The position numbers and the translations under genes are program-made. Source: a virus (Duplodnaviria > Caudoviricetes). From it: a stretch of 64,000 bases of DNA. Each line of letters starts with the position of its first letter. The first letter of the stretch is position 1. The notes under the pieces are model-generated. The model was given only the letters and a program-made list of their open reading frames with translations. It had not been told where the DNA came from and did not search any database. The stretch spans positions 42,186-106,185 of IMG/VR virus record IMGVR_UViG_2974592485_000001; one strand, given 5' to 3'. Below are positions 1 to 9,044 of the stretch, piece by piece.

Positions 1-19
1 ATTTTGCGTGCACCATCGT

Positions 20-291
20 ATGTTTATTGATGTCCTTTACCCATCTTCTCAATGAGTTATCCCGTGCGTTTGGTTGAGGGCTGAGAGGCCACCTCAGATT
101 CACTCAACTATCCAAGCTCTGTACTAAACGTTACAAACTCGAACCAGAGCGTAGAGTTTATGAGCAGTTTTACAGTCTGACAACTGTACGGTTTAGCTAT
201 TTCGATCTAACCTTGATAAGACACATCGTGGCCGATTTGCCCTCATAGTATGTACTCTAGCAGCGATCGCGTAGCTATACGCATCAAACAC
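20..291 (-). ncRNA. Candidate structured non-coding RNA domain (unidentified)
   Basis: No minus-strand ORF. Long-range pairing of 282-291 with 20-32 encloses several hairpins (minus strand gcgta/tacgc, tacagt/actgta, gttgag/ctcaac). Lies downstream of a strong leftward promoter. Confidence 0.35.
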
Positions 292-300
292 CTAACTCTT

Positions 301-370
301 TCCCACTGTAGGACTCGAACCTACGCCTGTACCCCTAGGGTACTATCATTTCCAACTAGACCAAGAGGGC
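301..370 (-). tRNA. Degenerate tRNA-like element (pseudo-tRNA; short anticodon loop centred on TAG)
   Basis: Minus strand reads GCCCTCT TG GTCT AGTTGGAAA TGAT A GTACC CTAGG GGTAC AGGC GTAGG TTCGAGT CCTAC AGTGGGA: perfect T-arm and a D-loop GG, but two acceptor-stem mismatches, a 5-nt anticodon loop and no CCA. Confidence 0.6.
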
Positions 371-374
371 AGTG

Positions 375-755
375 TTGTTACGTGATCAATTTCGACACCC
401 CGTAATTTGTGGCTGGTACACCCCTAATAAGACATCCTATTGGCATCCTACTCCAGACATACACTTCCCACATTTAGTAAAGAAGAGTTTACGAGATTCT
501 CAGTCAGCACTGAGGTTTTCTAGAGGAGAGCGAGCCACAATTCCGAACTTGTCATTCCTCAAACTCACAGATTCTCTCTAGGTATACTCACGATCCAGTT
601 TCACCCGCTAAGACTACTACATCCACGTGTACCTCAGCATAGTCTGCCTGCTGTTCTTTACTACATAAATTAAAGCATTTTAGGTGTGCGGTGTGGCACT
701 TTAACCTCTTAAGAGTACCCGAAGTGAACTTTTAGGATCTGACTCCCTCTGTAAA
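375..755 (-). ncRNA. Candidate structured non-coding RNA (possible pseudoknot)
   Basis: Directly downstream of the promoter at 782-810, with no ORF on that strand. A 10-bp helix (654-663/475-484) and an 8-bp helix (533-540/407-414) cross each other; extra local hairpins are present. Confidence 0.4.
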
Positions 756-781
756 CCTTCTTTTCTTTAATTTATGAATCT

Positions 782-810
782 ATTATACAGATTATTTAGC
801 TAAAAAGCAA
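782..810 (-). promoter_or_regulatory. T5-type strong sigma70 promoter
   Basis: TTGCTT-N17-TATAAT with an A-rich UP element and downstream AGATTCATAAATT, very like T5 PN25. Confidence 0.85.
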
Positions 811-818
811 ATGAATTT

Positions 819-1091
819 TTAATTAAATTCGTCCAACAACTTAACTATTATATCCCCATGACACAGGTTAGGCTTACAAAAACAACCTAAACGCTTCCCC
901 TCTAAGGCTAGAAGTCTATCTTTAAACGTAGAATCTGTAGATAGCCTATTTCTTAAATGCATCTCATATAATTTAATGCATTTTATTAGGCCATAATCCC
1001 TAGCCTCAAAAGGGTTTCCAAACTCAGAAGGGCGACCTATGTACACATCATATTCTTCGCCCTTCTTTATATTTACTACTTTAGTAGTCAT
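819..1091 (-). CDS. DUF4326-like protein
   Basis: YIGRPSEFGNPF ... LGCFCKP.CHGD motif. Confidence 0.75.
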   Translation of the reverse strand: MTTKVVNIKKGEEYDVYIGRPSEFGNPFEARDYGLIKCIKLYEMHLRNRLSTDSTFKDRLLALEGKRLGCFCKPNLCHGDIIVKLLDEFN

Positions 1092-1537
1092 TTTCCTGCT
1101 TCTTTCAAAACTCTGTCAGCAATCTGTGATGCCATCTTACCATCATACTGACCAGCAAACTCTGCCTTAAGTAGTCGCATTAAAATGGCTTTAGTAATCA
1201 CAGTATCTGTGTTTAGGTCAATAACTTGATTGAAGTACTGGACTAATTGGGCTTCCGATAGCAGTACAGGTGCATAACGTTCCCATAGCTCATCTAGAAG
1301 CTCTACAAACAGCTGATCAGGTTGATAATCAATCCCCAGCTCATTGGCTTTTGCTTCCGTAGTCTCAATAGCTTTATTTTGAGACTTGATATATTTTAAG
1401 AGTTCATCACGACTAATGTAATCTTTGTTTATACGTTGTAAGTCCCCTAACACTGTAGATACCGCTACAGTTGGATAACCGTTTTTACGAAAGGTTTCTA
1501 GGATTTCTCGTAGAACCGTAAGCATATTTTCGCCCAT
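1088..1537 (-). CDS. GatB/YqeY-like domain protein
   Basis: Helical 149-aa ORF with a C-terminal LKAEFAGQYDGKMAS motif; same position as in T5-like phages. Confidence 0.6.
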   Translation of the reverse strand: MGENMLTVLREILETFRKNGYPTVAVSTVLGDLQRINKDYISRDELLKYIKSQNKAIETTEAKANELGIDYQPDQLFVELLDELWERYAPVLLSEAQLVQYFNQVIDLNTDTVITKAILMRLLKAEFAGQYDGKMASQIADRVLKEAGK

Positions 1538-1545
1538 GATACTTC

Positions 1546-1998
1546 CTATGTTTTTGGTTTATAAAACTTATGCCCATCTATTTTCTTTGTTTTATCTAAG
1601 CTCTTAGCCCAATAAGGGTCTTTTCCACTATGGAAATATAGTGCCCCATGTGTCAAGTCCTCTGTCCAACCTTGGTAATATGTGATTTCAGCTAGTTTCT
1701 TAGCCTTATCCCACGCTTTCTTATTTTTTATCTTTAAACTTTTGTGCTTAGTCCATGTGAATTGACTTGGCTCGTATACTACGGAACAATATGTTGTAGG
1801 AAATTTGTTACTATAAACCCTGTTCCTAATAACTTGTCCCACAGCAGCCTGACCTTCTAAGGAAGTACCTCTAGCTTCAAAGTATATAGCTTGTGCTATA
1901 CAAGAGATTTCCTTAGTGTCTTTAGCACTTTTAGTAACCGTACCTACAGTATCATGAGGAATAGTTAGTAAAAGTGTTAACAGCAGCTCTGTTATCAT
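1546..1998 (-). CDS. SleB-like cell wall hydrolase (Hydrolase_2)
   Basis: CIAQAIYFEARG, VIRNRV, VVYEPSQFTW, GALYFH, IDGHKFY motifs; N-terminal hydrophobic segment. Confidence 0.9.
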   Translation of the reverse strand: MITELLLTLLLTIPHDTVGTVTKSAKDTKEISCIAQAIYFEARGTSLEGQAAVGQVIRNRVYSNKFPTTYCSVVYEPSQFTWTKHKSLKIKNKKAWDKAKKLAEITYYQGWTEDLTHGALYFHSGKDPYWAKSLDKTKKIDGHKFYKPKT

Positions 1999-2006
1999 AT
2001 TACCTC

Positions 2007-2368
2007 CAGTTCTAGGGTAGCTCTATCCTGTAAACAGCCTAGCGGTGTTAAGAGTCATATCTTATGAACTGCTAACCGTTAGTCTAGGATTTCATTAGCT
2101 CTGTACTCTGTATTTTCAAGTTTGATCTTTCAAGTTTAAACTTTTATCGCTAACCTTTAAGCTTGTAAGCTTTAACCTTTGAAGATATGTTAGGCGCGCA
2201 GCCTATCAACATTTTAGAATACGGATTAAATGTCCGGTCTATAACGTCAATCTCCTAGTGAGATTTACCTTTAGGTTTGGTTAGCCACTAAGTTTAACCC
2301 CCCGACGTGGCTAATAAGGGGTAAGATGTTATCAACTTCGTAAACAGAATAAAGCTACCTTAGAACTG
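2007..2368 (-). ncRNA. Candidate structured ncRNA with heptamer-repeat array
   Basis: 24-bp terminal stem 2345-2368/2007-2030 (23 of 24 paired, two G-U pairs on the minus strand), several internal hairpins and 12 tandem ~7-nt units. Confidence 0.7.
2096..2180 (-). repeat. Twelve degenerate tandem 7-nt units
   Basis: aaaggtt aaagctt acaagctt aaaggtt agcgata aaagttt aaacttg aaagatc aaacttg aaaatac agagtac agagcta. Confidence 0.8.
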
Positions 2369-2393
2369 CCCTATTTCTAGGGCAGGATTACTA

Positions 2394-3026
2394 TCAAACT
2401 TCGATAGTAGTCTTAGCGTTAGACTCTGACAAGGCAAAGTCAACGTTAAGCTCAAAATCTTCAATAGACTCTTGAAGGGCTTTGATTCGAGCGTCAAGAC
2501 CAATTGGGTCTAGGACGTTAGGAGTGCTACGAACCTCGATAGGCTGAGTAATCATAGCAATATCCTCTGCGGATACCTTCTTATCCTTGCCAAAAGCTGC
2601 TGCTCTAGCGTCTTCTAGCTTCTTGTTAAAGCCTTCCAGACGAGTAGCATGCTCCCGATCCATTTGGATTTTCTGCTTAGTCATAGAGATAAGCAACTGC
2701 TTTTCATACCCAATGCTACGCTTAGCCTCAATTGCAGCAGCTACAGTCATAACCTTCTGACCTATAGTTACCTCTGTTACTGCGTTAGAGGCTACGATAG
2801 CTGCTTTGATCTTAGCTCGCTCAGAAATCATATCAGTAACACTTTGAAGTGCTCCAGTGATCTGGGAGGTCACGTCTTCTACGGTGTTAGAGTAGCCCGC
2901 AACCTTAGTAAAGTTACCTGTACCATCTGTTTGTGCGTAAAACTTCAAACGAGGAAGCTCACGCTCAATTTTAGCATCCAGTGCCTTTGCAGTTGCCAGT
3001 GCTTTAGTAATTGTCATAGTAGTCAT
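2394..3026 (-). CDS. Conserved 210-aa coiled-coil protein of unknown function
   Basis: AGGAGA RBS before ATG 3026 (MTTMTITKAL...); helical heptad character; IVASNA.TEV and LSESNA.TTIEV internal repeat. Resembles a T5 hypothetical protein at the same locus. Confidence 0.85.
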   Translation of the reverse strand: MTTMTITKALATAKALDAKIERELPRLKFYAQTDGTGNFTKVAGYSNTVEDVTSQITGALQSVTDMISERAKIKAAIVASNAVTEVTIGQKVMTVAAAIEAKRSIGYEKQLLISMTKQKIQMDREHATRLEGFNKKLEDARAAAFGKDKKVSAEDIAMITQPIEVRSTPNVLDPIGLDARIKALQESIEDFELNVDFALSESNAKTTIEV

Positions 3027-3066
3027 GTGTATTCTCCTAATTAATCTTTGAGGTTTAGTTTTTTTG

Positions 3067-3216
3067 TTATTCTTGGTTAATAACCTTAACCAGTCCACCT
3101 GTAGCTCGGTTCAGCAGGGCTAGTACTTTGATATGCCCTGAGGTAATTTCTTTCTGTTTACGTTCATCACGAGCTGAAGACTGTTTGATTTTGCGTGGCT
3201 TTTTGGATACTGGCAT
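3067..3216 (-). CDS. Small basic 49-aa protein
   Basis: MPVSKKPRKIKQSSARDERKQKEITSGHIKVLALLNRATGGLVKVINQE; AAGGA RBS; first gene after the promoter at 3248-3276. Below the ORF-track cutoff. Confidence 0.7.
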   Translation of the reverse strand: MPVSKKPRKIKQSSARDERKQKEITSGHIKVLALLNRATGGLVKVINQE

Positions 3217-3247
3217 TTTTATTTTCCTTTGTTCAAATTAGATAAAT

Positions 3248-3276
3248 ATTATACGACATTTTTAAGCATCAGGCAA
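3248..3276 (-). promoter_or_regulatory. Sigma70 promoter
   Basis: TTGCCT-N17-TATAAT. Confidence 0.8.
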
Positions 3277-3284
3277 ATATAATT

Positions 3285-3974
3285 TTATACAAGCTGACTA
3301 ATTAATCGGATTTCAAATCCTTCTACCAAGGCATCATATACGGGATCATGTTTGGTTGCAGTTCTAGCCTTTCCTAGCCCAAACATTTTGAAGTACTCGA
3401 TTGTTAAATCTACCGCTACCTTCTGAATATCTGTTTTATACGAGTCTGCCCCGTATCTACTAGTATAAAGAGCACGAAGACTCCGGAGGTTTCCTTGCTG
3501 CCAAAAATCACATAAAGGTTTTTCAAACCCTAAGTCATGGTAGTGTGCTTCTAGAATCTTATGGTCGAACTCATTACCATTACCGTAGCTCATGTCATAC
3601 TTACCCGTATTGGCAGAATACCATTGCTGGATATCCCTTAATACTTGAGTGTTGTTAGCTACTTTAACAGTAGGTATACTGTCTGATTCTTTGCCATATA
3701 CTGTAACCTCTGGAGTAATATCTCCAGAAAGGATGCTAATAATCTCATCAGATGGCAACGTATTTTTATACGCTTCTTTCATCCAAAAGGCTATAGTTGA
3801 AGCTGTTGCTACGGCTCCTCGGTTAAATTGCTCCTCTACATTGAGAGTAGCCATGATTACCTTAGGATAATCATTATCGGGGAATACAGCAACTGCTACA
3901 CTAGGCATAGCAATAAGGTTAGTTGTACCAGAGTTTGTACCTAAAGTCTCAATATCAATTACTGAAAATGTCAT
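3285..3974 (-). CDS. DEDDh 3'-5' exonuclease (DexA/ExoVIII-like)
   Basis: DIETLG (ExoI), GNGNEFD (ExoII), HDPVYDA (ExoIII). Confidence 0.75.
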   Translation of the reverse strand: MTFSVIDIETLGTNSGTTNLIAMPSVAVAVFPDNDYPKVIMATLNVEEQFNRGAVATASTIAFWMKEAYKNTLPSDEIISILSGDITPEVTVYGKESDSIPTVKVANNTQVLRDIQQWYSANTGKYDMSYGNGNEFDHKILEAHYHDLGFEKPLCDFWQQGNLRSLRALYTSRYGADSYKTDIQKVAVDLTIEYFKMFGLGKARTATKHDPVYDALVEGFEIRLISQLV

Positions 3975-3999
3975 TAGTTTTTCCTCTTGTTAAAAACGC

Positions 4000-4218
4000 T
4001 TAACAATCTCTAGTATTGTTAAGCCCTTTCTTGGGCTTTGGAGGGGTAATCCAGTCCTGGTCTACTCCCCAGTTTTCCTCATTACTAGGACTAATGAAAC
4101 CATCAAACTCATCCGCCATTTCTAGCAACTGTTTAGTTGTAAGGCGCGTATAGTCCTTACCGGACTTGTGCGCGCCTCCTACGTTAAAGTCATGTTTTGC
4201 TACTAGATTATTAGACAC
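4000..4218 (-). CDS. Hypothetical protein (T5-like conserved)
   Basis: NLVAKHDFN N-terminus typical of a conserved small phage protein; operon position. Confidence 0.7.
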   Translation of the reverse strand: MSNNLVAKHDFNVGGAHKSGKDYTRLTTKQLLEMADEFDGFISPSNEENWGVDQDWITPPKPKKGLNNTRDC

Positions 4219-4510
4219 CTAAATACTCCTTACAGTATCGATCTAAGGCTTCTTTAGCTTCGTTTTCTGACAAGAAGAAACCTTGAGAGAATTGACCGCA
4301 TTCATCAGAATATTCAAACCATTCAGCTTGCATGAGGTATAAAGACTCTGTATCAGGGCTACTAGCAACTGTCAATCTAAAAATATTTGGAGTACTGGTA
4401 GCGTGTGAAGTAATAGCACCCTCATAAAATAGTCTGTCTACTATTACTCCCAAAATATAACTTGGTGCTGGCATAACAAATTCCTTAGTAGGGGCTTTCG
4501 CCCCTGTCAA
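4211..4510 (-). CDS. Hypothetical protein
   Basis: Fills the gap between coupled ORFs; start codon uncertain. Confidence 0.55.
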   Translation of the reverse strand: MTGAKAPTKEFVMPAPSYILGVIVDRLFYEGAITSHATSTPNIFRLTVASSPDTESLYLMQAEWFEYSDECGQFSQGFFLSENEAKEALDRYCKEYLGV

Positions 4511-4511
4511 A

Positions 4512-4997
4512 TTATTTTGATTTACGACGTGGCTTGCTGCTAGAACGCTTGATTCCTAGGTGGAAGCAGATTGCTCGAGCATCCTCAGCATCGTACTCTT
4601 TGCCAAAGAGATTTGGCTTCACTGAACCAAAGGTTGCTCTTTGTTCCATAATAAACTTAGACAACTCACGACGTCGACTAGACATCTGTCGGGTGTAGTC
4701 CTTCGGTGCCATAGTACCTTTAGGGTAAAACTCGTTATCCAGATATGTTCCTGTAACTACAGGGACGCTTTTGTGTCCGTATCCTGCAACAAAGGCTACT
4801 AGCCGAGCTTTAGCTCGGGACTTGGTAGAACCTTTAACCTGAGGCTTAGCTCGTGGCGTAAAGCTCTTAACTGCTTTAGCAGTCTGTGCATCGTTTGGGT
4901 GTGCCTTCAAATGGCGCGCCAGACGACGAGCACGATTAGCTTCGGTTTTGCTGGTGTCTTTTACCACTACAGTTTTTGTATTTTTAGACTTAGCCAT
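4512..4997 (-). CDS. Basic hypothetical protein (T5-like conserved)
   Basis: RBS, strong codon bias, RRLARHLKAHPNDAQ motif. Confidence 0.8.
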   Translation of the reverse strand: MAKSKNTKTVVVKDTSKTEANRARRLARHLKAHPNDAQTAKAVKSFTPRAKPQVKGSTKSRAKARLVAFVAGYGHKSVPVVTGTYLDNEFYPKGTMAPKDYTRQMSSRRRELSKFIMEQRATFGSVKPNLFGKEYDAEDARAICFHLGIKRSSSKPRRKSK

Positions 4998-5034
4998 TTT
5001 TATTTCCTTTGTTTGTTCATTAATTTATGAGATA

Positions 5035-5063
5035 ATTATACGCTTTATTTTGATAAATAGCAA
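5035..5063 (-). promoter_or_regulatory. Sigma70 promoter
   Basis: TTGCTA-N17-TATAAT. Confidence 0.8.
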
Positions 5064-5078
5064 CTAAAATTTTATAAA

Positions 5079-5354
5079 TTATCGTCCGATCGTTTTTGCT
5101 TGTTCTTCGCTTGCAATATACGTGTACGCCCCTTTATTGAATGCGGGTGCTGTGCATAGCTTCTTACGCTCTATTTCTTCCAAAGCTTTAGCTTCTCTAG
5201 CAGCCATTTCAGGATCGAGAATCTCTTTTTGGACTGGTGGTGGAGGGTTCCTAGTACTAGGCTCTCCGATGTTAATCCCTTTGTTCGGTCTACGAGGAGA
5301 CTCAGCTCTTTTACGTAAGGGGATAATCCAAGGTGGTGAGTTATACGTTGGCAC
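5079..5354 (-). CDS. Hypothetical protein (conserved C-terminal APAFNKGAY motif)
   Basis: AAGGAG RBS with GTG start; phage-conserved C-terminus. Confidence 0.7.
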   Translation of the reverse strand: MPTYNSPPWIIPLRKRAESPRRPNKGINIGEPSTRNPPPPVQKEILDPEMAAREAKALEEIERKKLCTAPAFNKGAYTYIASEEQAKTIGR

Positions 5355-5560
5355 GGGTTCTCCTTGTAAACTACATGTGAGTCTGTTCTGTAAGCAAGCA
5401 CTAGGAAACCTTTTTCTTGTAGTTTCTTAGCTGCCGTAACGGTTTGATGATAGTAACCTGTAGGATTCCTGGAGACTCTGAACTCCCCATAGGCTATTAG
5501 ATGGCAGGCAACCCTCTCTGCAAATTCTTTTGTTACTCCGAATTCCTTAGTAGTTGCCAT
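5171..5560 (-). CDS. Hypothetical protein
   Basis: RBS and first gene after the promoter; its 3' part overlaps the next gene by 184 bp. Confidence 0.55.
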   Translation of the reverse strand: MATTKEFGVTKEFAERVACHLIAYGEFRVSRNPTGYYHQTVTAAKKLQEKGFLVLAYRTDSHVVYKENPCQRITHHLGLSPYVKELSLLVDRTKGLTSESLVLGTLHHQSKKRFSILKWLLEKLKLWKK

Positions 5561-5590
5561 TTGCTAATCCTTCTCTAAATTTATGGAATA

Positions 5591-5619
5591 ATTATACAGA
5601 TTATTAGGCTAAATAGCAA
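5591..5619 (-). promoter_or_regulatory. Sigma70 promoter
   Basis: TTGCTA-N17-TATAAT. Confidence 0.8.
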
Positions 5620-5772
5620 ATAAAATTTTAAAAAACATTTTCTAACTCTTTTGCGTAGTTAAATTTAAACATAGATAGGCGCCATAACCGGTAGTTTCTT
5701 TCCTCTATACTAGAGGAAAAATAAACACTACGTTTTATATCGTGATATGTACGCCTAATACCTAGGATATAT

Positions 5773-6252
5773 TCAGGACTTAAGATAATCATCTAATTCG
5801 TGCTCCGATAGTACAACATTACACAATGCGTCAACCCTGTCATTTCTAGGATCTCCCGAATGCCCCTTAACCTTAATAAAGGTTGGAATCTCCCCATGAA
5901 AATCCTTATATTTAGTTAATAGCGTGAATGCCTCTTTCCACAATTCTAAGTTTAAGGGGGTCTGGCCATCTGCCTTCTTCCACCCCTTCCTCTGCCACGA
6001 CCATAACCAAGACTCCATACCATTTTTAACATAGGTAGAGTCAGTATATACTTTAATGGGTCTTCCATCAGATTTAGTTGCCCACCTAAGTAGCTCTACT
6101 ACTGCAGTTACTTCCATCTCATTGTTGGTAGTTTCTGAACTATAACCTGATTTCTTCCCTAGCATATCGTCGTTTTCATCAAACACACAGAAAGCCCAGG
6201 ATCCTTTCCCGGGGTTACCTCTGCAAGCCCCATCAGTAAATACGTGAAACAT
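5773..6252 (-). CDS. rnh: Ribonuclease HI
   Basis: FTDGACRGNPG, TTNNEME, YTDSTY, VKGHSG..N..VD motifs. Confidence 0.95.
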   Translation of the reverse strand: MFHVFTDGACRGNPGKGSWAFCVFDENDDMLGKKSGYSSETTNNEMEVTAVVELLRWATKSDGRPIKVYTDSTYVKNGMESWLWSWQRKGWKKADGQTPLNLELWKEAFTLLTKYKDFHGEIPTFIKVKGHSGDPRNDRVDALCNVVLSEHELDDYLKS

Positions 6253-6476
6253 TATTGATAACCTCTCTCATTTGGGTGCTCCAGTTGTGCTGGAGGTGGT
6301 GGAGGTGGAGGTATGCCCCTACGGGCTGGACTAATAATACCTAGCAGATTGTTTAGAATGTAGTCAATACCTTCTCCTATCATTTTGTCTAATATAGGTT
6401 TTGTGTAGTGGGGTACCAAAGCTTCATATTTTCGTTTCTGCTTTTCATCTAAGTAAAATTTTGGTGTAAAAATCAT
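6252..6476 (-). CDS. Hypothetical protein with a 7-proline tract
   Basis: Lies between thyA and rnh; TAATG stop/start coupling to rnh. Confidence 0.65.
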   Translation of the reverse strand: MIFTPKFYLDEKQKRKYEALVPHYTKPILDKMIGEGIDYILNNLLGIISPARRGIPPPPPPPAQLEHPNERGYQ

Positions 6477-6484
6477 ATTAATCC

Positions 6485-7318
6485 TTAGGCTGACATTTTG
6501 CCCACTAGTTTGCCATGTGGGTTATAGTCCTTTAAGATAAAGTCTTTAGCATCTAGAGCTAATACCTCTTCTAAAGTAGAAAACTCAGGTAAGATTAATT
6601 CTGGTAAGTCTTTAGGCTCTCTGGTGAGTTGTTCTGTAATCTGATCTATGTGGTTCTGGTAGATGTGCGTATCCCCTAGATGTACACATAGTTCTCCAAC
6701 ATCTAGCCCACAAATCTGTGCTAAAATATGTGCTAGTGTTGCGTAACTTGCAATATTATAAGGTAACCCTAGGAATACATCACAACTAGGCTGATACCAA
6801 GTAAGATTTAACTTATTCTTGCGGGTATTAACAACGAACATAAGATGACACGGAGATAGTACCATATCTGGTAAATCTAAGGGATTCCATGCGGATACAA
6901 TCATTTTACGATTATGGAATGTATCGTTCTTAATATCTTTGATTAACTTAGTGATCTGGTCTACTTGGATAAATGATCGCCATTGTTTACCATAGATTGG
7001 TCCTAGGTAACCATCTTCGTACCCCTTTTCTTTACCCTGCTTCTCGTAATTACCCGTCCAGATAGTACCCCTCTCGCCTCTAGTGCCGTACGTCCGCTCT
7101 TCCAGATCATACATGTTAGTAGAGCCTGAAAGGAACCAAAGTAACTCCGCAACTACTCCTCTAAAGAATAGATGCTTTGTAGTAACTGCTGGGAATCCCT
7201 TTTGCAAATCGAATTTTAACATACGGTTTAAGACAGACACTGTGCCAGTCCCAGTCCGATCCATAATCCAATCACCGTTAGCTAGTACGTCTTGTGCTAG
7301 ATCTAAATACTGCTGCAT
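6485..7318 (-). CDS. thyA: Thymidylate synthase
   Basis: DRTGTGT, ELLWFLSG, LSPCH, DVFLGLPYN, HIYQNH motifs. Confidence 0.97.
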   Translation of the reverse strand: MQQYLDLAQDVLANGDWIMDRTGTGTVSVLNRMLKFDLQKGFPAVTTKHLFFRGVVAELLWFLSGSTNMYDLEERTYGTRGERGTIWTGNYEKQGKEKGYEDGYLGPIYGKQWRSFIQVDQITKLIKDIKNDTFHNRKMIVSAWNPLDLPDMVLSPCHLMFVVNTRKNKLNLTWYQPSCDVFLGLPYNIASYATLAHILAQICGLDVGELCVHLGDTHIYQNHIDQITEQLTREPKDLPELILPEFSTLEEVLALDAKDFILKDYNPHGKLVGKMSA

Positions 7319-7908
7319 TAATAAATCTCCCTATACTGAGCAAACTTGTTAGTGTTGGTAGCATTCTCATTGACCTTATGCATGAGAATCCTGGTTGGGG
7401 AATTTAAAGTACTGGAGGGTAAAGTTAAGTAGGTATGAGGATAGTGTGACCATCCCTTAGATTGAACTATAGAAACTAAAGCCTCAGAAATTAAGTCTAA
7501 GGAGTACAGTGTAATTAGTAAATTAGCTCCCCCTATGCATATTCCAGTATATCCTAGACCTTCTAAGTACATATCTAAGGACTTTCCTACCTGAGATACT
7601 CTAAGGTGCCTATCTAAAGCTCCTAAGCTATACTCTTCTGACTCTTTTTGGTTTCTGCCTACTAGTACCCATTTAACGGTACCTGCCGCTTCCTCTATTT
7701 TATGTAGTATGCTAGAAGGTGTGGATTCGTACCATTTTTCTGTAGTTACTAGTATAGGTTCTTTTTCTTTACTTTTGATTTTCAGTGAGAAGTTATTTAG
7801 CCCCCAATAGAATCTTTCAAGCTCTTCGGGGTATGAGCCCCACGGTAATCCATTACCATGGTTAGACCCAAATTCTCCTCGTGGTCCTTTAGCATAAACT
7901 GCGTACAT
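7318..7908 (-). CDS. dfr: Divergent dihydrofolate reductase-like protein
   Basis: GEFG..GLPW..EEL..F N-terminus and IGGA motif; between nrdB and thyA as in T5. Confidence 0.7.
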   Translation of the reverse strand: MYAVYAKGPRGEFGSNHGNGLPWGSYPEELERFYWGLNNFSLKIKSKEKEPILVTTEKWYESTPSSILHKIEEAAGTVKWVLVGRNQKESEEYSLGALDRHLRVSQVGKSLDMYLEGLGYTGICIGGANLLITLYSLDLISEALVSIVQSKGWSHYPHTYLTLPSSTLNSPTRILMHKVNENATNTNKFAQYREIY

Positions 7909-9044
7909 TATAGATCTCCAATTAAGTCTGACATGTTTTCGATCTCACTATCAGACGTGGCTTTTGTTTGTCCCATCTTATAATTGGTTATTTGCATCTC
8001 TTGTGGGGCTACTTGTTGACTAGATGGGTCTAACCACTTGTTAATCCACAAGATTGGATTTTTTTCTACTACAGGAAGATTATCCGGCCATGCAATGCCT
8101 ACCCCTGCAAATGAATTTCTAGCTATAAAGTATAAATATTCAGGTAGATTGGTAGAATTTAATCCAATTATCTTTCTACCTTCTGAGAAGATAAACTTAG
8201 CCCAGTTTATTTCCGTATCTAATACGGAGGCCATGATTTCTGGTGCTGCTGCTTCTGCCTCTGCCCACTCCTTTGGAGTTACTTGAGTTTTCAGAATATT
8301 TAGAATCTCACGGCTTGCTACTGTATGCAAGGCCTCGTCCTTAGCAATCAGTTGCAAACTTTTTGCAACTCCAGGCAGTATATCCTGCTCAGCTAGTGCA
8401 AACGTACATGCAAAGGATGCATAAAACATAATAGACTCTAGGGCATAGATAGCAAAGTATACTTTACATAATAGTACCCTAAGTTCTGCTTCTACTTCTT
8501 CCAATTCTGTATCCGGATAGTCTTTAGGGTTATCCCTAACGAATGTCCAATATAGACCCTTTTCTGCTAACTCATCTAAAATACCTATGCTATTAGCTAC
8601 CCTAGCAAATGCGTGTTCGTTCTTGTTAACGGACTCGATAAATTCTGAGGGGTCTGTAAGTACGTTCCTAATAATATTAGAATACGCTCTAGAGTGTAAG
8701 TTCTCAAAGTATGACCATTGGATTAGTAGGCCTTCTAGCTCTGGACGTGATACTAGTTGAGAAATGGCTGTTTCAGGTGCTCGTGTAATCAGAGAATCTG
8801 CAATGGTCTGCCACCCAAGGTTAAGTCTAGTAATGTCCTTAATATGTTCGGGAAGTGTAGGCCACTGGGCTTTATCCTTCTCTAAGGATATCTCATTCTC
8901 ATACCACATTTGGCTTCTTTGCTTTAGTGCAAGGTCTTCCAATACTTGGTATTTAACATTTACATAGTCAGCTACCCCTAGTTCATCCCCTAGGAATAAC
9001 TTTTCTTCATTTAAATTGTAGTCTCTATTATAAACTGTTGCCAT
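7908..9044 (-). CDS. nrdB: Ribonucleotide reductase class Ia beta subunit
   Basis: ENLHSRAY, ESIMFYASF, DEALH diiron motifs. Confidence 0.97.
   Translation of the reverse strand: MATVYNRDYNLNEEKLFLGDELGVADYVNVKYQVLEDLALKQRSQMWYENEISLEKDKAQWPTLPEHIKDITRLNLGWQTIADSLITRAPETAISQLVSRPELEGLLIQWSYFENLHSRAYSNIIRNVLTDPSEFIESVNKNEHAFARVANSIGILDELAEKGLYWTFVRDNPKDYPDTELEEVEAELRVLLCKVYFAIYALESIMFYASFACTFALAEQDILPGVAKSLQLIAKDEALHTVASREILNILKTQVTPKEWAEAEAAAPEIMASVLDTEINWAKFIFSEGRKIIGLNSTNLPEYLYFIARNSFAGVGIAWPDNLPVVEKNPILWINKWLDPSSQQVAPQEMQITNYKMGQTKATSDSEIENMSDLIGDL

What the first reader, a model, noticed from the sequence alone, without database searches (positions are those of the whole stretch)
2007..3276. 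Candidate protein-RNA system: coiled-coil protein followed by a stem-closed ncRNA carrying twelve 7-nt repeats
Seen: a TTGCCT-17-TATAAT promoter drives a 49-aa Lys/Arg-rich peptide and a 210-aa coiled-coil protein. About 25 nt after its stop lies a ~360-nt ORF-free element. On the minus (sense) strand its ends form a 24-bp stem (CAGUUCUAAGGUAGCUUUAUUCUG / CAGGAUAGAGCUACCCUAGAACUG; 23 pairs, two G-U), preceded by a GAAA-tetraloop hairpin (2366-2385). Inside are hairpins (ttagccac/gtggctaa, aatctc/gagatt, taggc/gccta), then an A-rich, apparently unpaired array of 12 phased units (aaaggtt aaagctt acaagctt aaaggtt agcgata aaagttt aaacttg aaagatc aaacttg aaaatac agagtac agagcta), then a CCUAG/CUAGG-closed domain. 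The register is 7 nt, so it is not a codon pattern. Positions 1-3 are nearly fixed (A-R-A) and positions 4-7 vary. Knowledge: periodic RNA motifs are read by oligomeric proteins (TRAP on spaced NAG repeats, Hfq on ARN, Cas7 in 6-nt steps). The protein resembles a T5 hypothetical protein of unknown function, and its termini recall the DIP1984/DUF6847 coiled-coil family (from memory, unverified). Inference: the protein oligomerises on the array, one subunit per heptamer, to form a ring or filament RNP. The RNA could be a scaffold or ruler, an antitoxin or anti-defence decoy, or a discontinuous guide encoded in the variable positions. The long stem suggests RNase III-type excision from the operon mRNA.
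Basis: partly seen in the sequence, partly recalled or inferred. Interest (0 to 1): 0.9.

Follow-up and report, generated by a model that had tools for sequence, protein, structure and literature searches.

The report
Phage protein with heptad-repeat RNA partner
A small helical protein gene is always followed by a folded, roughly 360-base non-coding RNA carrying about twelve 7-base repeats; this two-part cassette occurs in phage T5, many other large phages and some bacterial chromosomes, is listed in no RNA catalogue searched here, and has no known function.

Summary
On the minus strand, a promoter (3276-3248) precedes a 49-aa ORF and a 210-aa helical protein (3026-2394). A 362-nt ORF-free RNA follows (2368-2007).

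The RNA has five parts:
- a long closing helix, P1
- a conserved CGAA junction
- an array of about 12 heptads with consensus N-U-Y-A-A-A-G
- a 3' domain, AAAUCC-helix...helix-GCUG

The same protein-then-RNA order is found in all 10 annotated phages examined (T5, My1, and Vibrio, Bacillus, Lactococcus, Pseudomonas, Klebsiella, Erwinia and Aeromonas phages). It is also found in 80 of 80 IMG/VR loci and in at least 74 of 80 bacterial loci.

The helices covary strongly. G-U pairs far outnumber A-C oppositions, which places the fold on the sense strand. The 7-nt period has z=24 over 39 diverse RNAs. In 91 Bacillaceae genomes, the RNA lies next to the protein gene in all 16 genomes that have the gene, and otherwise appears only as one deletion remnant plus weak or partial hits.

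RNA-seq contigs from T5 infections break at the foot of P1. Rfam 15 has no match, and the literature searches found nothing.

Function is unknown. The best guess (0.42) is a ribonucleoprotein in which the heptads bind several copies of the protein. Two other first readers of this scan flagged the same stretch of this genome.

The parts
3248..3276 (-). Sigma-70-type promoter TTGCCT-17-TATAAT for the transcription unit
   Evidence: 10 of 12 consensus positions; sequence.
3067..3216 (-). 49-aa Lys/Arg-rich ORF. It is specific to the T5-like lineage and is not part of the conserved cassette.
   Evidence: Only a weak phrog_5252 match (E 0.004). A small ORF at this place was seen only in T5 and My1.
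2394..3026 (-). 210-aa helical protein: phrog_1491, T5.085 homologue, with a DIP1984-like fold
   Evidence: E 6e-72. AF2 model with pLDDT 88. 3kdq at Z 10. 3,584 clusters at 50% identity. No Pfam, NCBIfam or PADLOC family.
2366..2385 (-). 8-bp hairpin with a GAAA loop between the stop codon and P1. Its last three bases are shared with P1.
   Evidence: It is conserved in My1. It is not a consensus terminator.
2007..2368 (-). The whole heptad-array RNA, 362 nt from the first to the last base of P1
   Evidence: It is the only R1 model hit in the 64-kb window and a single copy in the genome.
2344..2368 (-). P1, 5' strand of the closing helix
   Evidence: In the family, P1 has 453 Watson-Crick, 69 G-U and 10 A-C oppositions. 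Own-partner pairing is 9.5 of 10, against 4.4 of 10 across loci.
2323..2343 (-). Conserved junction (…CGAA…AACAUCUU) between P1 and the pseudoknot
   Evidence: CGA(A) follows P1 directly in most of the 39 loci. Diversity is 0.000 among the T5-likes.
2281..2322 (-). H-type pseudoknot. S1 is 2322-2316 with 2303-2297; S2 is 2314-2307 with 2288-2281.
   Evidence: A pseudoknot lies at the same place in 25 of 39 loci at p<=0.05, with a mean score of 28.4 against 12.8 in shuffles. Stem sequences differ between loci.
2184..2280 (-). Variable hairpin region. In some relatives it carries tRNA or tRNA-like inserts.
   Evidence: It has the highest diversity within the RNA (0.049).
2089..2183 (-). Array of 12-13 heptads with family consensus N-U-Y-A-A-A-G
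   Evidence: Diversity is 0.015 among the T5-likes, against 0.127 at third codon positions.
2035..2095 (-). 3' domain: AAAUCC, helix Pa (2088-2084 with 2042-2038), inner hairpins, and GCUG
   Evidence: Pa is 98.5-100% paired with 57-71 double-change cells, and 0 of 500 shuffles reach the observed score.
2007..2031 (-). P1, 3' strand. The Shine-Dalgarno sequence and start codon of the next gene (SleB-like hydrolase, 1998-1546) follow directly.

Best explanation
The stretch is one copy of a widespread, self-contained two-part cassette. One transcription unit encodes a roughly 210-aa helical-bundle protein, followed by a stable non-coding RNA of about 275-445 nt. The RNA is cut or trimmed out of the 3' part of that transcript.

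The RNA folds into a closed architecture of five parts: P1, the CGAA junction, an H-type pseudoknot, a variable arm and the 3' domain. This architecture displays an A-rich array of about 12 heptads (N-U-Y-A-A-A-G).

I infer that the RNA and its co-encoded protein form a ribonucleoprotein. In this model the heptads are repeated docking sites for several copies of the protein, probably through the conserved tip where its N-terminus, C-terminus and central beta-hairpin meet. The folded core would fix the ends and protect the RNA from nucleases.

What is shown: the RNA, its structure, its conservation, its strict genetic coupling to the protein, and hints of a discrete RNA in T5. What is inferred: the binding, the stoichiometry and the cellular role. 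The cassette's spread through phages, islands bearing conflict-system or integrase genes and ordinary chromosomal sites suggests a portable, self-sufficient function, such as a conflict or addiction-type module.
For: 1. Coupling. The gene is followed by an unannotated 360-790-nt gap in all 10 annotated phages looked at, from seven or more lineages. The 3' domain motif or model R1 is found downstream, on the same strand, in 79 of 80 IMG/VR loci, with L050 seen only by eye. It is found in 74 of 80 bacterial loci.

2. Exclusivity. Of five whole bacterial genomes searched, four hold exactly one R1 hit, and it is the one beside the gene. The fifth, Brevibacillus G003, scored none, although the motif is visible by eye at its locus L095. 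The 64-kb window also holds a single hit. In 91 Bacillaceae genomes, all 16 protein-positive genomes have the RNA 190-280 nt downstream. Among the 75 genomes without the protein, the only solid hit is a deletion remnant.

3. Autonomy. In Bacillus altitudinis the cassette has its own promoter-like region and terminator. It lies between an amino-acid permease gene and Ig-domain and subtilase genes, not in a prophage. Other bacterial copies sit next to transporters, a two-component system, a TOTE primase, a macro domain or an integrase.

4. RNA on the sense strand. P1 has 69 G-U against 10 A-C oppositions. Pa covaries with no broken pairs in 36 sequences and is 98.5% paired in 54 further sequences. 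Same-strand intrinsic terminators follow the RNA in at least 11 of 39 loci.

5. The array is selected as sequence. Its 7-nt period gives z=24, 16 and 10 at lags 7, 14 and 21. The median is 12 units per RNA. Among 26 T5-like sequences its diversity is 0.015, against 0.127 at third codon positions of the neighbouring gene. The same motif is used in phages of Proteobacteria, Firmicutes and Bacteroidota and in cyanobacterial genomes, and the only partner that always travels with it is the co-encoded protein.

6. Protein. The model is confident (pLDDT 88). The most conserved residues, including K14, R70, K74 and K102, lie in the N-terminal helix, around the central beta-hairpin and at the C-terminus.

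7. Expression. In T5 RNA libraries, a contig joined to a sequencing adapter starts at L024 2136/2137, which is 5-6 nt before P1. A 335-nt contig ends at 2501, which is 3 nt after P1. Contig depth is 831-3833 inside the RNA against 328 over the gene.
Against:
- The protein family is mildly acidic overall (median pI 5.8, net charge about -2), unlike many RNA-coating proteins.
- Its only structural relative, 3kdq, has no known function.
- Heptad number varies from 7 to 15, and spacing is sometimes 8 or more. A fixed one-subunit-per-heptad ring is therefore unlikely.
- The array is not predicted to be more single-stranded than a shuffled array of the same composition (0.49 against 0.50 unpaired).
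- The RNA-seq evidence rests on assembled contigs, which the tool itself rates as only a weak hint for ends and levels.
- Tight linkage also fits an RNA that acts in cis on the transcript, or on a host factor.
Confidence: 0.42

Rival explanations
1. The RNA is a sponge or decoy for a universal host component, with the heptads as the bait. Candidates are an endoribonuclease, ribosomal protein S1 or the ribosome, or a tRNA-handling enzyme. The co-encoded protein would be a helper or act separately.
For: - In phages the cassette is often embedded in the tRNA gene cluster, on the same strand (23 of 51 distinct loci).
- Some members carry a complete tRNA or a YrlA-like tRNA mimic inside the variable arm.
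- The heptad motif is the same across hosts of very different phyla, as expected for a universal target.
- The protein is acidic.
- Multivalent repeat RNAs that titrate proteins are established biology (CsrB/RsmZ; the pseudo-ToxI of phage phiTE). This point rests on my own knowledge.
Against: - It does not explain why the RNA is essentially never found without this particular protein gene directly upstream.
- It does not explain why the pair also sits as an isolated cassette in bacterial chromosomes.
- The motif is neither GGA (CsrA) nor an ARN tract (Hfq).
- One concrete version was tested and not supported. If the heptads were complements of the Lys, Glu and Gln anticodon loops, specific links between heptad positions 1 and 3 would be expected. 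The predicted combinations are depleted instead.
Confidence: 0.22
2. The element is a cis-acting 3' UTR or intercistronic structure. It would stabilise or process the mRNA of the protein gene, or couple or insulate expression of the downstream gene. The repeats would be nuclease or ribosome entry sites, and there would be no separate RNP.
For: - The element always lies on the same transcript, directly after the stop codon.
- In the window, P1 ends 1 nt before the Shine-Dalgarno sequence of the next gene.
- The T5 ends lie at the stem base, as expected for a 3'-exonuclease block.
Against: - A closing helix, a pseudoknot, a three-helix 3' domain and a 12-unit array conserved over thousands of protein clusters is far more than known stabiliser hairpins need.
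- The downstream gene differs in every lineage: endolysin, tRNA, gyrase, portal region or a terminator.
- One locus has two complete RNAs in tandem.
- Contig depth inside the RNA exceeds that of the coding part.
Confidence: 0.1
3. It is a DNA-level element, such as iterons of an origin, a packaging site, or a miniature inverted-repeat transposable element bounded by 24-bp inverted repeats.
For: Terminal inverted repeats flank an AT-rich interior of short repeats.
Against: - There is a single copy in this genome and in each bacterial genome searched.
- The terminal repeats change sequence in every locus while keeping their pairing. G-U is tolerated and A-C is not (69 against 10), which only an RNA on this strand explains.
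- The pseudoknot and Pa covary.
- Terminators follow on the same strand.
Confidence: 0.02

Closest known systems
CsrB/RsmZ-type sponge RNAs and the TRAP-binding trp leader (repeat RNAs read by protein oligomers)
   Same: A non-coding RNA displays about 10-20 short, spaced copies of one motif. In the known cases these bind many copies or subunits of one protein.
   Different: - The motif here is N-U-Y-A-A-A-G with a strict 7-nt period, not GGA in hairpin loops or (G/U)AG with 2-3-nt spacers.
- The array is embedded in a closed fold with a pseudoknot.
- The presumed partner is co-encoded on the same transcript and is an uncharacterised helical bundle.
- Binding is not shown.
Type III toxin-antitoxin systems (ToxIN, CptIN, TenpIN)
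   Same: A portable two-part cassette of one protein gene and one repetitive RNA gene, found in bacteria and phages. The RNA remnant can persist without the protein, but the protein was not seen without the RNA.
   Different: - The repeats are 7 nt, not 34-40 nt.
- The RNA lies downstream of the protein gene, not upstream behind a terminator.
- The protein has no ToxN/Kid-like endoribonuclease fold.
- There is no PADLOC match.
- Toxicity is untested.
Bacterial and phage Y RNAs (YrlA) with Rsr/Ro60
   Same: The 5' and 3' ends close a long stem, and the RNA is modular. A few family members carry a YrlA-like permuted tRNA module in the variable arm (L011, 44.5 bits; L076, 28.3 bits).
   Different: - The window's RNA has no tRNA-like module and no Rfam YrlA match.
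- The inserts score below the gathering threshold of 69 bits.
- The partner protein is not a Ro60/vWA protein.
- Y RNAs have no heptad array and no such pseudoknot.
Stable RNAs of the phage T5 tRNA region (RNAX and others annotated in the T5 record)
   Same: They are phage-encoded, structured and of unknown function, in the same early genome region. RNAX lies about 2 kb away in T5.
   Different: This RNA is not annotated in T5. Of the 60 sampled rows (out of 448 T5-like records matched), none lists an RNA feature there. Most rows read 'none'; a few list a promoter, a ribosome-binding site or small ORFs. It has a different architecture, extends far beyond the T5-like phages, and has a dedicated protein gene.
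DIP1984/DUF6847-type helical proteins (PDB 3kdq, Corynebacterium diphtheriae, function unknown)
   Same: This is the best structural match, covering 151 of 152 residues of 3kdq at Z 10. The nearest Pfam-bearing Atlas cluster carries DUF6847.
   Different: - The phage protein is about 60 residues longer.
- Sequence similarity is below family thresholds.
- That 3kdq is DIP1984 itself is my recollection and was not verified.
- No RNA partner is known for that family.

Membership tests
Any Rfam 15 family | A covariance-model match at or near the family's gathering score | tested here: not met
   The window (1-8000) gave no hit in the element at E<=1. In 17 diverse loci at E<=0.1, the only hits in the gaps were tRNA or YrlA-like inserts.
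tmRNA | A tRNA-like domain formed by the two ends, plus a tag reading frame | tested here: not met
   ARAGORN found no tmRNA in the window, and there is no Rfam tmRNA hit. The 7-nt period excludes a reading frame.
Y RNA / YrlA (RF02553) | A match to the YrlA model at its gathering score of 69 bits, with a tRNA-like module | tested here: not met
   The window has no match. L011 scores 44.5 bits and L076 28.3 bits, and only for an insert in the variable arm.
Type III toxin-antitoxin (ToxIN-like) | An endoribonuclease toxin of the ToxN/Kid-like fold | tested here: not met
   The AF2 model is a long helical bundle with a small beta tip. The best PDB match is 3kdq, and the rest are helical bundles. 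PADLOC gave only chance-level hits.
Type III toxin-antitoxin (ToxIN-like) | An antitoxin RNA made of tandem 34-40-nt repeats, encoded upstream of the toxin gene | tested here: not met
   The repeats are 7 nt and lie downstream of the protein gene, inside a folded 362-nt RNA.
Type III toxin-antitoxin (ToxIN-like) | The protein is toxic and is neutralised by the RNA | not testable with these tools
   This needs expression of the protein with and without the RNA.
CsrB/RsmZ sponge RNAs | Multiple GGA motifs presented in hairpin loops | tested here: not met
   The heptad matrix is N-U-Y-A-A-A-G, with A invariant at position 4 and G at only 9% of position 5.
TRAP-type leader | Nine to eleven (G/U)AG triplets separated by 2-3 nt | tested here: not met
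   The period is 7 (196 of 451 spacings are exactly 7) and the core is AAAG.
PHROG 1491 (labelled 'tail fiber protein') | A full-length profile match | tested here: met
   E 6.1e-72 over residues 1-210. The label is probably a propagated annotation. The cassette also occurs outside prophages, and nothing ties it to tails.
DUF6847 / DIP1984 family | A Pfam PF20935 or NCBIfam match above the curated cut-off | tested here: not met
   Only 1 of 40 members matched, at E 0.009. NCBIfam gave no match.
DUF6847 / DIP1984 family | The same fold as the solved member | tested here: inconclusive
   3kdq matches at Z 10.0 with rmsd 6.3 over 151 residues, and Foldseek gives E 0.014. For helical bundles, a Z under about 13 may reflect only a common arrangement.

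The most novel reading that the evidence does not exclude
The cassette is a new kind of protein-RNA conflict module, a stoichiometric 'array antitoxin'. One folded RNA would hold about a dozen copies of a helical effector in an inactive particle. Decay of the RNA or a halt in transcription, for example during infection or on loss of the element, would release the protein to act. Phages such as T5 would carry the cassette for exclusion, addiction or counter-defence. An equally new alternative is a filament- or brush-like RNP that uses the heptad array as a ruler.
Probability: 0.15. Interest if true: 0.92.

Novelty: categorically new. Interest (0 to 1): 0.86.

Why it matters
- **Model phage.** Phage T5 has been studied for 70 years. 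It carries this RNA directly after gene T5.085, and none of the T5-like records sampled here annotates it as an RNA.
- **Size of the family.** The protein partner defines a family of at least 3,584 clusters at 50% identity with no Pfam entry. It spans Demerecviridae, Herelleviridae, Vequintavirinae, jumbo phages, lactococcal phages and many bacterial chromosomes.
- **Unusual architecture.** I know of no described bacterial or phage RNA with a large RNA, a strict 7-nt repeat array held in a pseudoknotted frame, and a dedicated protein.
- **Ready for the bench.** Exact coordinates are available in T5/E. coli and in Bacillus altitudinis and the B. pumilus group, so knockouts, pull-downs and cryo-EM can start at once.
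- **Annotation.** The 'tail fiber protein' label on these genes in hundreds of phage records is probably wrong.

Tried and rejected
- **Mobile element or DNA repeat.** Rejected. There is a single copy per genome, and G-U pairs far outnumber A-C oppositions.
- **Known RNA family.** Rfam gave nothing for the core. ARAGORN found no tmRNA.
- **Heptads as complements of the Lys, Glu or Gln anticodon loops** (UU-NAA-AG against CU-UUN-AA). The predicted links between heptad positions 1 and 3 are depleted, not enriched. Dropped.
- **Selection for a single-stranded array.** The predicted unpaired probability is 0.49 for the array against 0.37 for the rest of the RNA. A shuffled array gives 0.50, so composition alone explains the difference. 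My automatic array boundaries were also poor for about a third of the loci. Inconclusive.
- **Inner helices Pb and Pc of the 3' domain.** Only 51-60% of cells pair on the MAFFT alignment. They probably differ between subgroups, so I do not claim them.
- **MAFFT alignment of the pseudoknot region.** It was too poor for pair counting. I replaced it with a per-sequence pseudoknot search against shuffles.
- **Defence-system libraries and sequence search of PDB.** Nothing significant.
- **BFVD and ESM Atlas.** Only uncharacterised relatives.
- **Literature.** Six full-text searches (T5 RNAs, heptamer repeats, DIP1984/septicolysin/DUF6847, phage RNA motifs) found no description. The RIP-seq runs that hold T5 probably come from reverse-transcriptase defence studies. 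They are therefore not targeted at this RNA.
- **First exact-word search of viral contigs with the single protein.** It returned only My1. The alignment query was needed to go further.
Full report
**What is in the window**

The window is a T5-like phage of the Demerecviridae. Its nearest record is Pectobacterium phage My1, at about 66% nucleotide identity over this region. All features lie on the minus strand.

- A TTGCCT-17-TATAAT promoter lies at 3276-3248.
- A 49-aa ORF lies at 3216-3067, and a 210-aa ORF at 3026-2394.
- The stretch from 2393 to 1999 contains no ORF.
- The next gene is a SleB-like cell-wall hydrolase at 1998-1546.
- The ORF-free stretch folds far better than shuffled sequence, with z = -5.66.
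- It matches no Rfam family at E<=1.
- It occurs once in the phage genome.

One correction applies: the 'ttagccac/gtggctaa hairpin' is the second stem of an H-type pseudoknot. Its first stem is ACCCCUU/GGGGGGU.

**Anatomy of the RNA (2368-2007, 362 nt)**

- P1 closing helix: 2368-2344 with 2031-2007.
- Junction with the conserved CGAA: 2343-2323.
- Pseudoknot: 2322-2281.
- Variable hairpins: 2280-2184.
- Heptad array: 2183-2089.
- 3' domain: AAAUCC, then helix Pa (2088-2084 with 2042-2038) enclosing small hairpins, then GCUG (2038-2035), which runs straight into the 3' strand of P1.

An 8-bp hairpin with a GAAA loop (2385-2366) lies between the stop codon and P1.

**It is a family, not a local oddity**

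A tblastn search with the protein finds 737 phage records. In all ten diverse annotated phages I opened, the gene is followed by an unannotated gap of 360-790 nt. These were My1, Salmonella S124 (T5-like), Vibrio VPG01 and Brizo, Aeromonas 4_4572, Bacillus JBP901, Pseudomonas phiPsa374, Klebsiella KpS8, Erwinia Deimos-Minion and Lactococcus AM12.

In T5 itself the gene is T5.085. The 442-nt gap behind it carries only a promoter annotation for the next gene. The 60 rows sampled from the 448 T5-like records that match this gap list no RNA feature there.

An alignment-based scan returned 80 IMG/VR loci out of 309 relatives, and 80 bacterial or archaeal genome loci out of 171 relatives. A profile search of 1.84 billion cluster representatives gives 3,584 protein clusters at E<=1e-3. 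Nearly all are 200-215 aa long.

**Structure is conserved through covariation**

- *Helix Pa.* A simple search for 'AAAUC + 5-nt arm … complementary arm + YUG' found the 3' domain 190-430 nt behind the stop codon in most loci. The arm sequences differ between loci: CCUAG/CUAGG, CCGCA/UGCGG, CCACG/CGUGG, CCAUG/CAUGG and others. On a 36-sequence alignment, Pa has no broken pair and 57 double-change cells. On 54 further sequences aligned to the model, it is 98.5% paired. There it has 71 double-change cells against 20 expected, 0 of 500 shuffles reach the score, and sliding the partner by one column drops pairing to 43-48%.
- *Helix P1.* P1 is found in all 39 non-redundant RNAs, with CGA(A) directly 3' of its 5' strand and GCUG directly 5' of its 3' strand in most. 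The ten pairs nearest the junction are 9.5 of 10 paired with the locus's own partner, against 4.4 of 10 with the 3' strand of another locus.
- *Strand.* P1 holds 453 Watson-Crick, 69 G-U and only 10 A-C oppositions. This places the structure in RNA of the sense strand and rules out a DNA-level inverted repeat.
- *Pseudoknot.* An H-type pseudoknot sits 18-25 nt after P1. S1 has 4-7 bp and S2 has 5-9 bp. It scores 28.4 on average against 12.8 in shuffles, and is individually significant in 25 of 39 RNAs. Stem sequences are unrelated between clades.
- *Inner helices.* I could not establish the inner helices of the 3' domain across the whole family.

**The heptad array is a family feature**

In the 100 nt before AAAUCC, identity at lags 7, 14 and 21 is far above shuffles across the 39 RNAs (z = 24, 16 and 10). 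An iterated position matrix gives the following:

| Position | Preference |
|---|---|
| 1 | any base |
| 2 | U 74% |
| 3 | C/U 72% |
| 4 | A, fixed by construction |
| 5 | A 84% |
| 6 | A 72% |
| 7 | G 56% |

The median is 12 units per RNA, with a range of 7-15, and 7 is by far the commonest spacing.

Among 26 distinct T5-like sequences, nucleotide diversity is 0.127 at third codon positions of the protein gene. Within the RNA it is 0.000-0.015 in P1, the junction, the pseudoknot, the array and the 3' domain, and 0.049 in the variable arm. The array is therefore under purifying selection as sequence, including its 'variable' positions.

**Coupling to the protein gene is almost absolute**

A covariance model of the 3' domain (R1) gives the following results.

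- It hits once in the 64-kb window, at 2031-2100 on the minus strand.
- It hits every 'difficult' viral locus but one.
- It hits 74 of the 80 bacterial loci. Of the six without a hit, two are cut short and one (L095) shows the motif by eye.
- Every hit is on the strand of the gene and downstream of it.
- Of five complete bacterial genomes, four hold exactly one hit, the one beside the gene. The fifth, Brevibacillus G003, scored none.

In 91 Bacillaceae genomes the protein occurs in 16, and all 16 have the RNA 190-280 nt downstream. The extra RNA hits are one weak hit, two 39-nt partial hits, and G023. In G023 the protein gene and the 5' half of the RNA have been deleted, leaving the 3' half behind an amino-acid permease gene.

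In Bacillus altitudinis the unit is free-standing. It has its own promoter-like region and ribosome-binding site, a 206-aa gene, an RNA of about 260 nt and an intrinsic terminator. It lies between the permease gene and Ig-domain and subtilase genes. Other bacterial copies lie beside transporters, a two-component system, a TOTE-system primase, a macro-domain gene or an integrase.

In phages, 23 of 51 distinct loci have same-strand tRNA genes in the flanks, and in several a tRNA begins 3-10 nt after P1.

**Expression**

Only assembled contigs of RNA libraries were available, and they cannot give levels or ends reliably. Even so, one T5-infection library shows three things in T5 (locus L024), where P1 spans 2142-2160 and 2480-2498:

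- A contig fused to the sequencing adapter starts at 2136/2137.
- A 335-nt contig ends at 2501.
- Contig depth is 831-3833 inside the RNA, against 328 over the gene.

A second study's contig ends at 2486 next to adapter sequence. This fits a discrete RNA of about 365 nt whose ends lie just outside P1. It argues for trimming to the stem base, or for RNase P or RNase E cuts where tRNAs or AU-rich leaders flank the RNA, rather than for RNase III cleavage inside the stem. I treat this as suggestive only.

**The protein**

- AlphaFold2 with a 40-sequence alignment gives a confident model (pLDDT 88). It has three long helices and two shorter ones. The N-terminal strand, the C-terminal strand and the central beta-hairpin are the only strands.
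- The best structural match is 3kdq, a Corynebacterium diphtheriae protein of unknown function (Z 10.0 over 151 of 152 residues; Foldseek E 0.014). All other matches are generic helical bundles.
- No Pfam, NCBIfam or PADLOC family passes its threshold.
- The nearest Pfam-bearing Atlas cluster carries DUF6847.
- All viral structural neighbours are uncharacterised.
- Conservation concentrates at residues 7-14, 61-105 and 191-208, including K14, R70, K74 and K102. The family as a whole is mildly acidic, with median pI 5.8.
- The 'tail fiber protein' label of PHROG 1491 has no support in anything seen here.

**Interpretation**

What is shown is a new, widespread, strongly constrained non-coding RNA that is genetically inseparable from one protein family. 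The pair forms a portable cassette.

How it works is inference. The simplest reading is a ribonucleoprotein. The only constant companion of the heptad motif, across hosts from Proteobacteria to Firmicutes, Bacteroidota and Cyanobacteria, is the co-encoded protein. A dozen evenly spaced copies of a short motif is the signature of multivalent protein binding. I give this 0.42.

The variable number of heptads, the acidic protein and the lack of any binding test keep the figure low. They also argue against a fixed ring with one subunit per heptad.

The rivals are a decoy for a universal host factor linked to tRNA or translation (0.22), a purely cis-acting 3' UTR structure (0.10) and a DNA element (0.02). 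The remainder is 'something else'.

The cassette's distribution resembles that of toxin-antitoxin and conflict modules, and an RNA remnant without the protein exists while the reverse was not seen. The most novel reading still open is therefore an RNA that holds many copies of a helical effector in check (0.15).

**Comparison with known systems**

The cassette works most like repeat-RNA and protein pairs: CsrB-CsrA, the TRAP leader and ToxI-ToxN. It fails the defining features of each in motif, repeat length, gene order and protein fold. It is not a tmRNA, and it is not a Y RNA, although some members carry YrlA-like tRNA modules or a whole tRNA in the variable arm. It is none of the stable RNAs annotated in the T5 record.

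Rfam 15 and six full-text literature searches gave no description. I therefore rate it as lying outside every known kind of system. The caveat is that its function is unknown, and subscription-only literature could not be searched.

Noticed in passing
L096:2107-2790 (Parabacteroides MAG contig): Two complete heptad-array RNAs lie in tandem behind a single protein gene. Each has its own P1, CGAAAA junction, array and 3' domain (R1 hits at 2340-2412 and 2702-2770).
   Followed up: partly
L062:2238-2314; L011:2654-2717; L076:2242-2297: The variable arm of some family members holds a complete tRNA-Thr(UGU) (L062) or a YrlA-like permuted tRNA module (L011 at 44.5 bits, L076 at 28.3 bits; both below the Rfam gathering score of 69).
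   Followed up: partly
L010, L015, L060, L067, L073, L074 (3' ends of the RNA): A tRNA gene starts 3-10 nt after the 3' strand of P1, so RNase P processing of the tRNA would set the 3' end of the RNA. Overall, 23 of 51 distinct viral loci have same-strand tRNA genes in the flanks.
   Followed up: partly
L174:1480-1640 (Bacillaceae genome G023): This is a deletion remnant. Only the 3' half of the RNA (part of the array, the 3' domain, the P1 3' strand and the terminator) remains, directly after the stop codon of an amino-acid permease gene. The protein gene is gone.
   Followed up: yes
L070 and L082 (IMG/VR contig 3300024999_000029, 349 kb): One viral contig carries two protein-plus-RNA cassettes about 157 kb apart. 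This may be a duplication or an assembly of two genome copies.
   Followed up: no
window 3285-3974 (-): The upstream neighbour is a 229-aa protein with an Rv2179c-like 3'-5' exoribonuclease domain (Pfam E 3e-11; PHROG 'exonuclease'). Its T5 counterpart is T5.087.
   Followed up: no
window 2404-2432 (-): A second promoter-like site, TTGTCA-17-TACTAT (9 of 12), lies inside the 3' end of the protein gene. It could give the RNA its own transcript.
   Followed up: no
window 1-705 and 299-371 (-): A tRNA-Leu-like gene (ARAGORN, Rfam tRNA 38 bits) is embedded in a long gene-free stretch. Other agents of this scan read this stretch as the phage's RNAX. In T5, RNAX is annotated about 2 kb from T5.085.
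   Followed up: no
L060:1-185: The 3' part of a group I intron (Rfam 41 bits, below the gathering score of 50) lies at the edge of the locus, upstream of the cassette.
   Followed up: no
phage records under: Hundreds of phage records label this gene 'tail fiber protein'. Nothing seen here supports that name, and it looks like a propagated annotation.
   Followed up: partly
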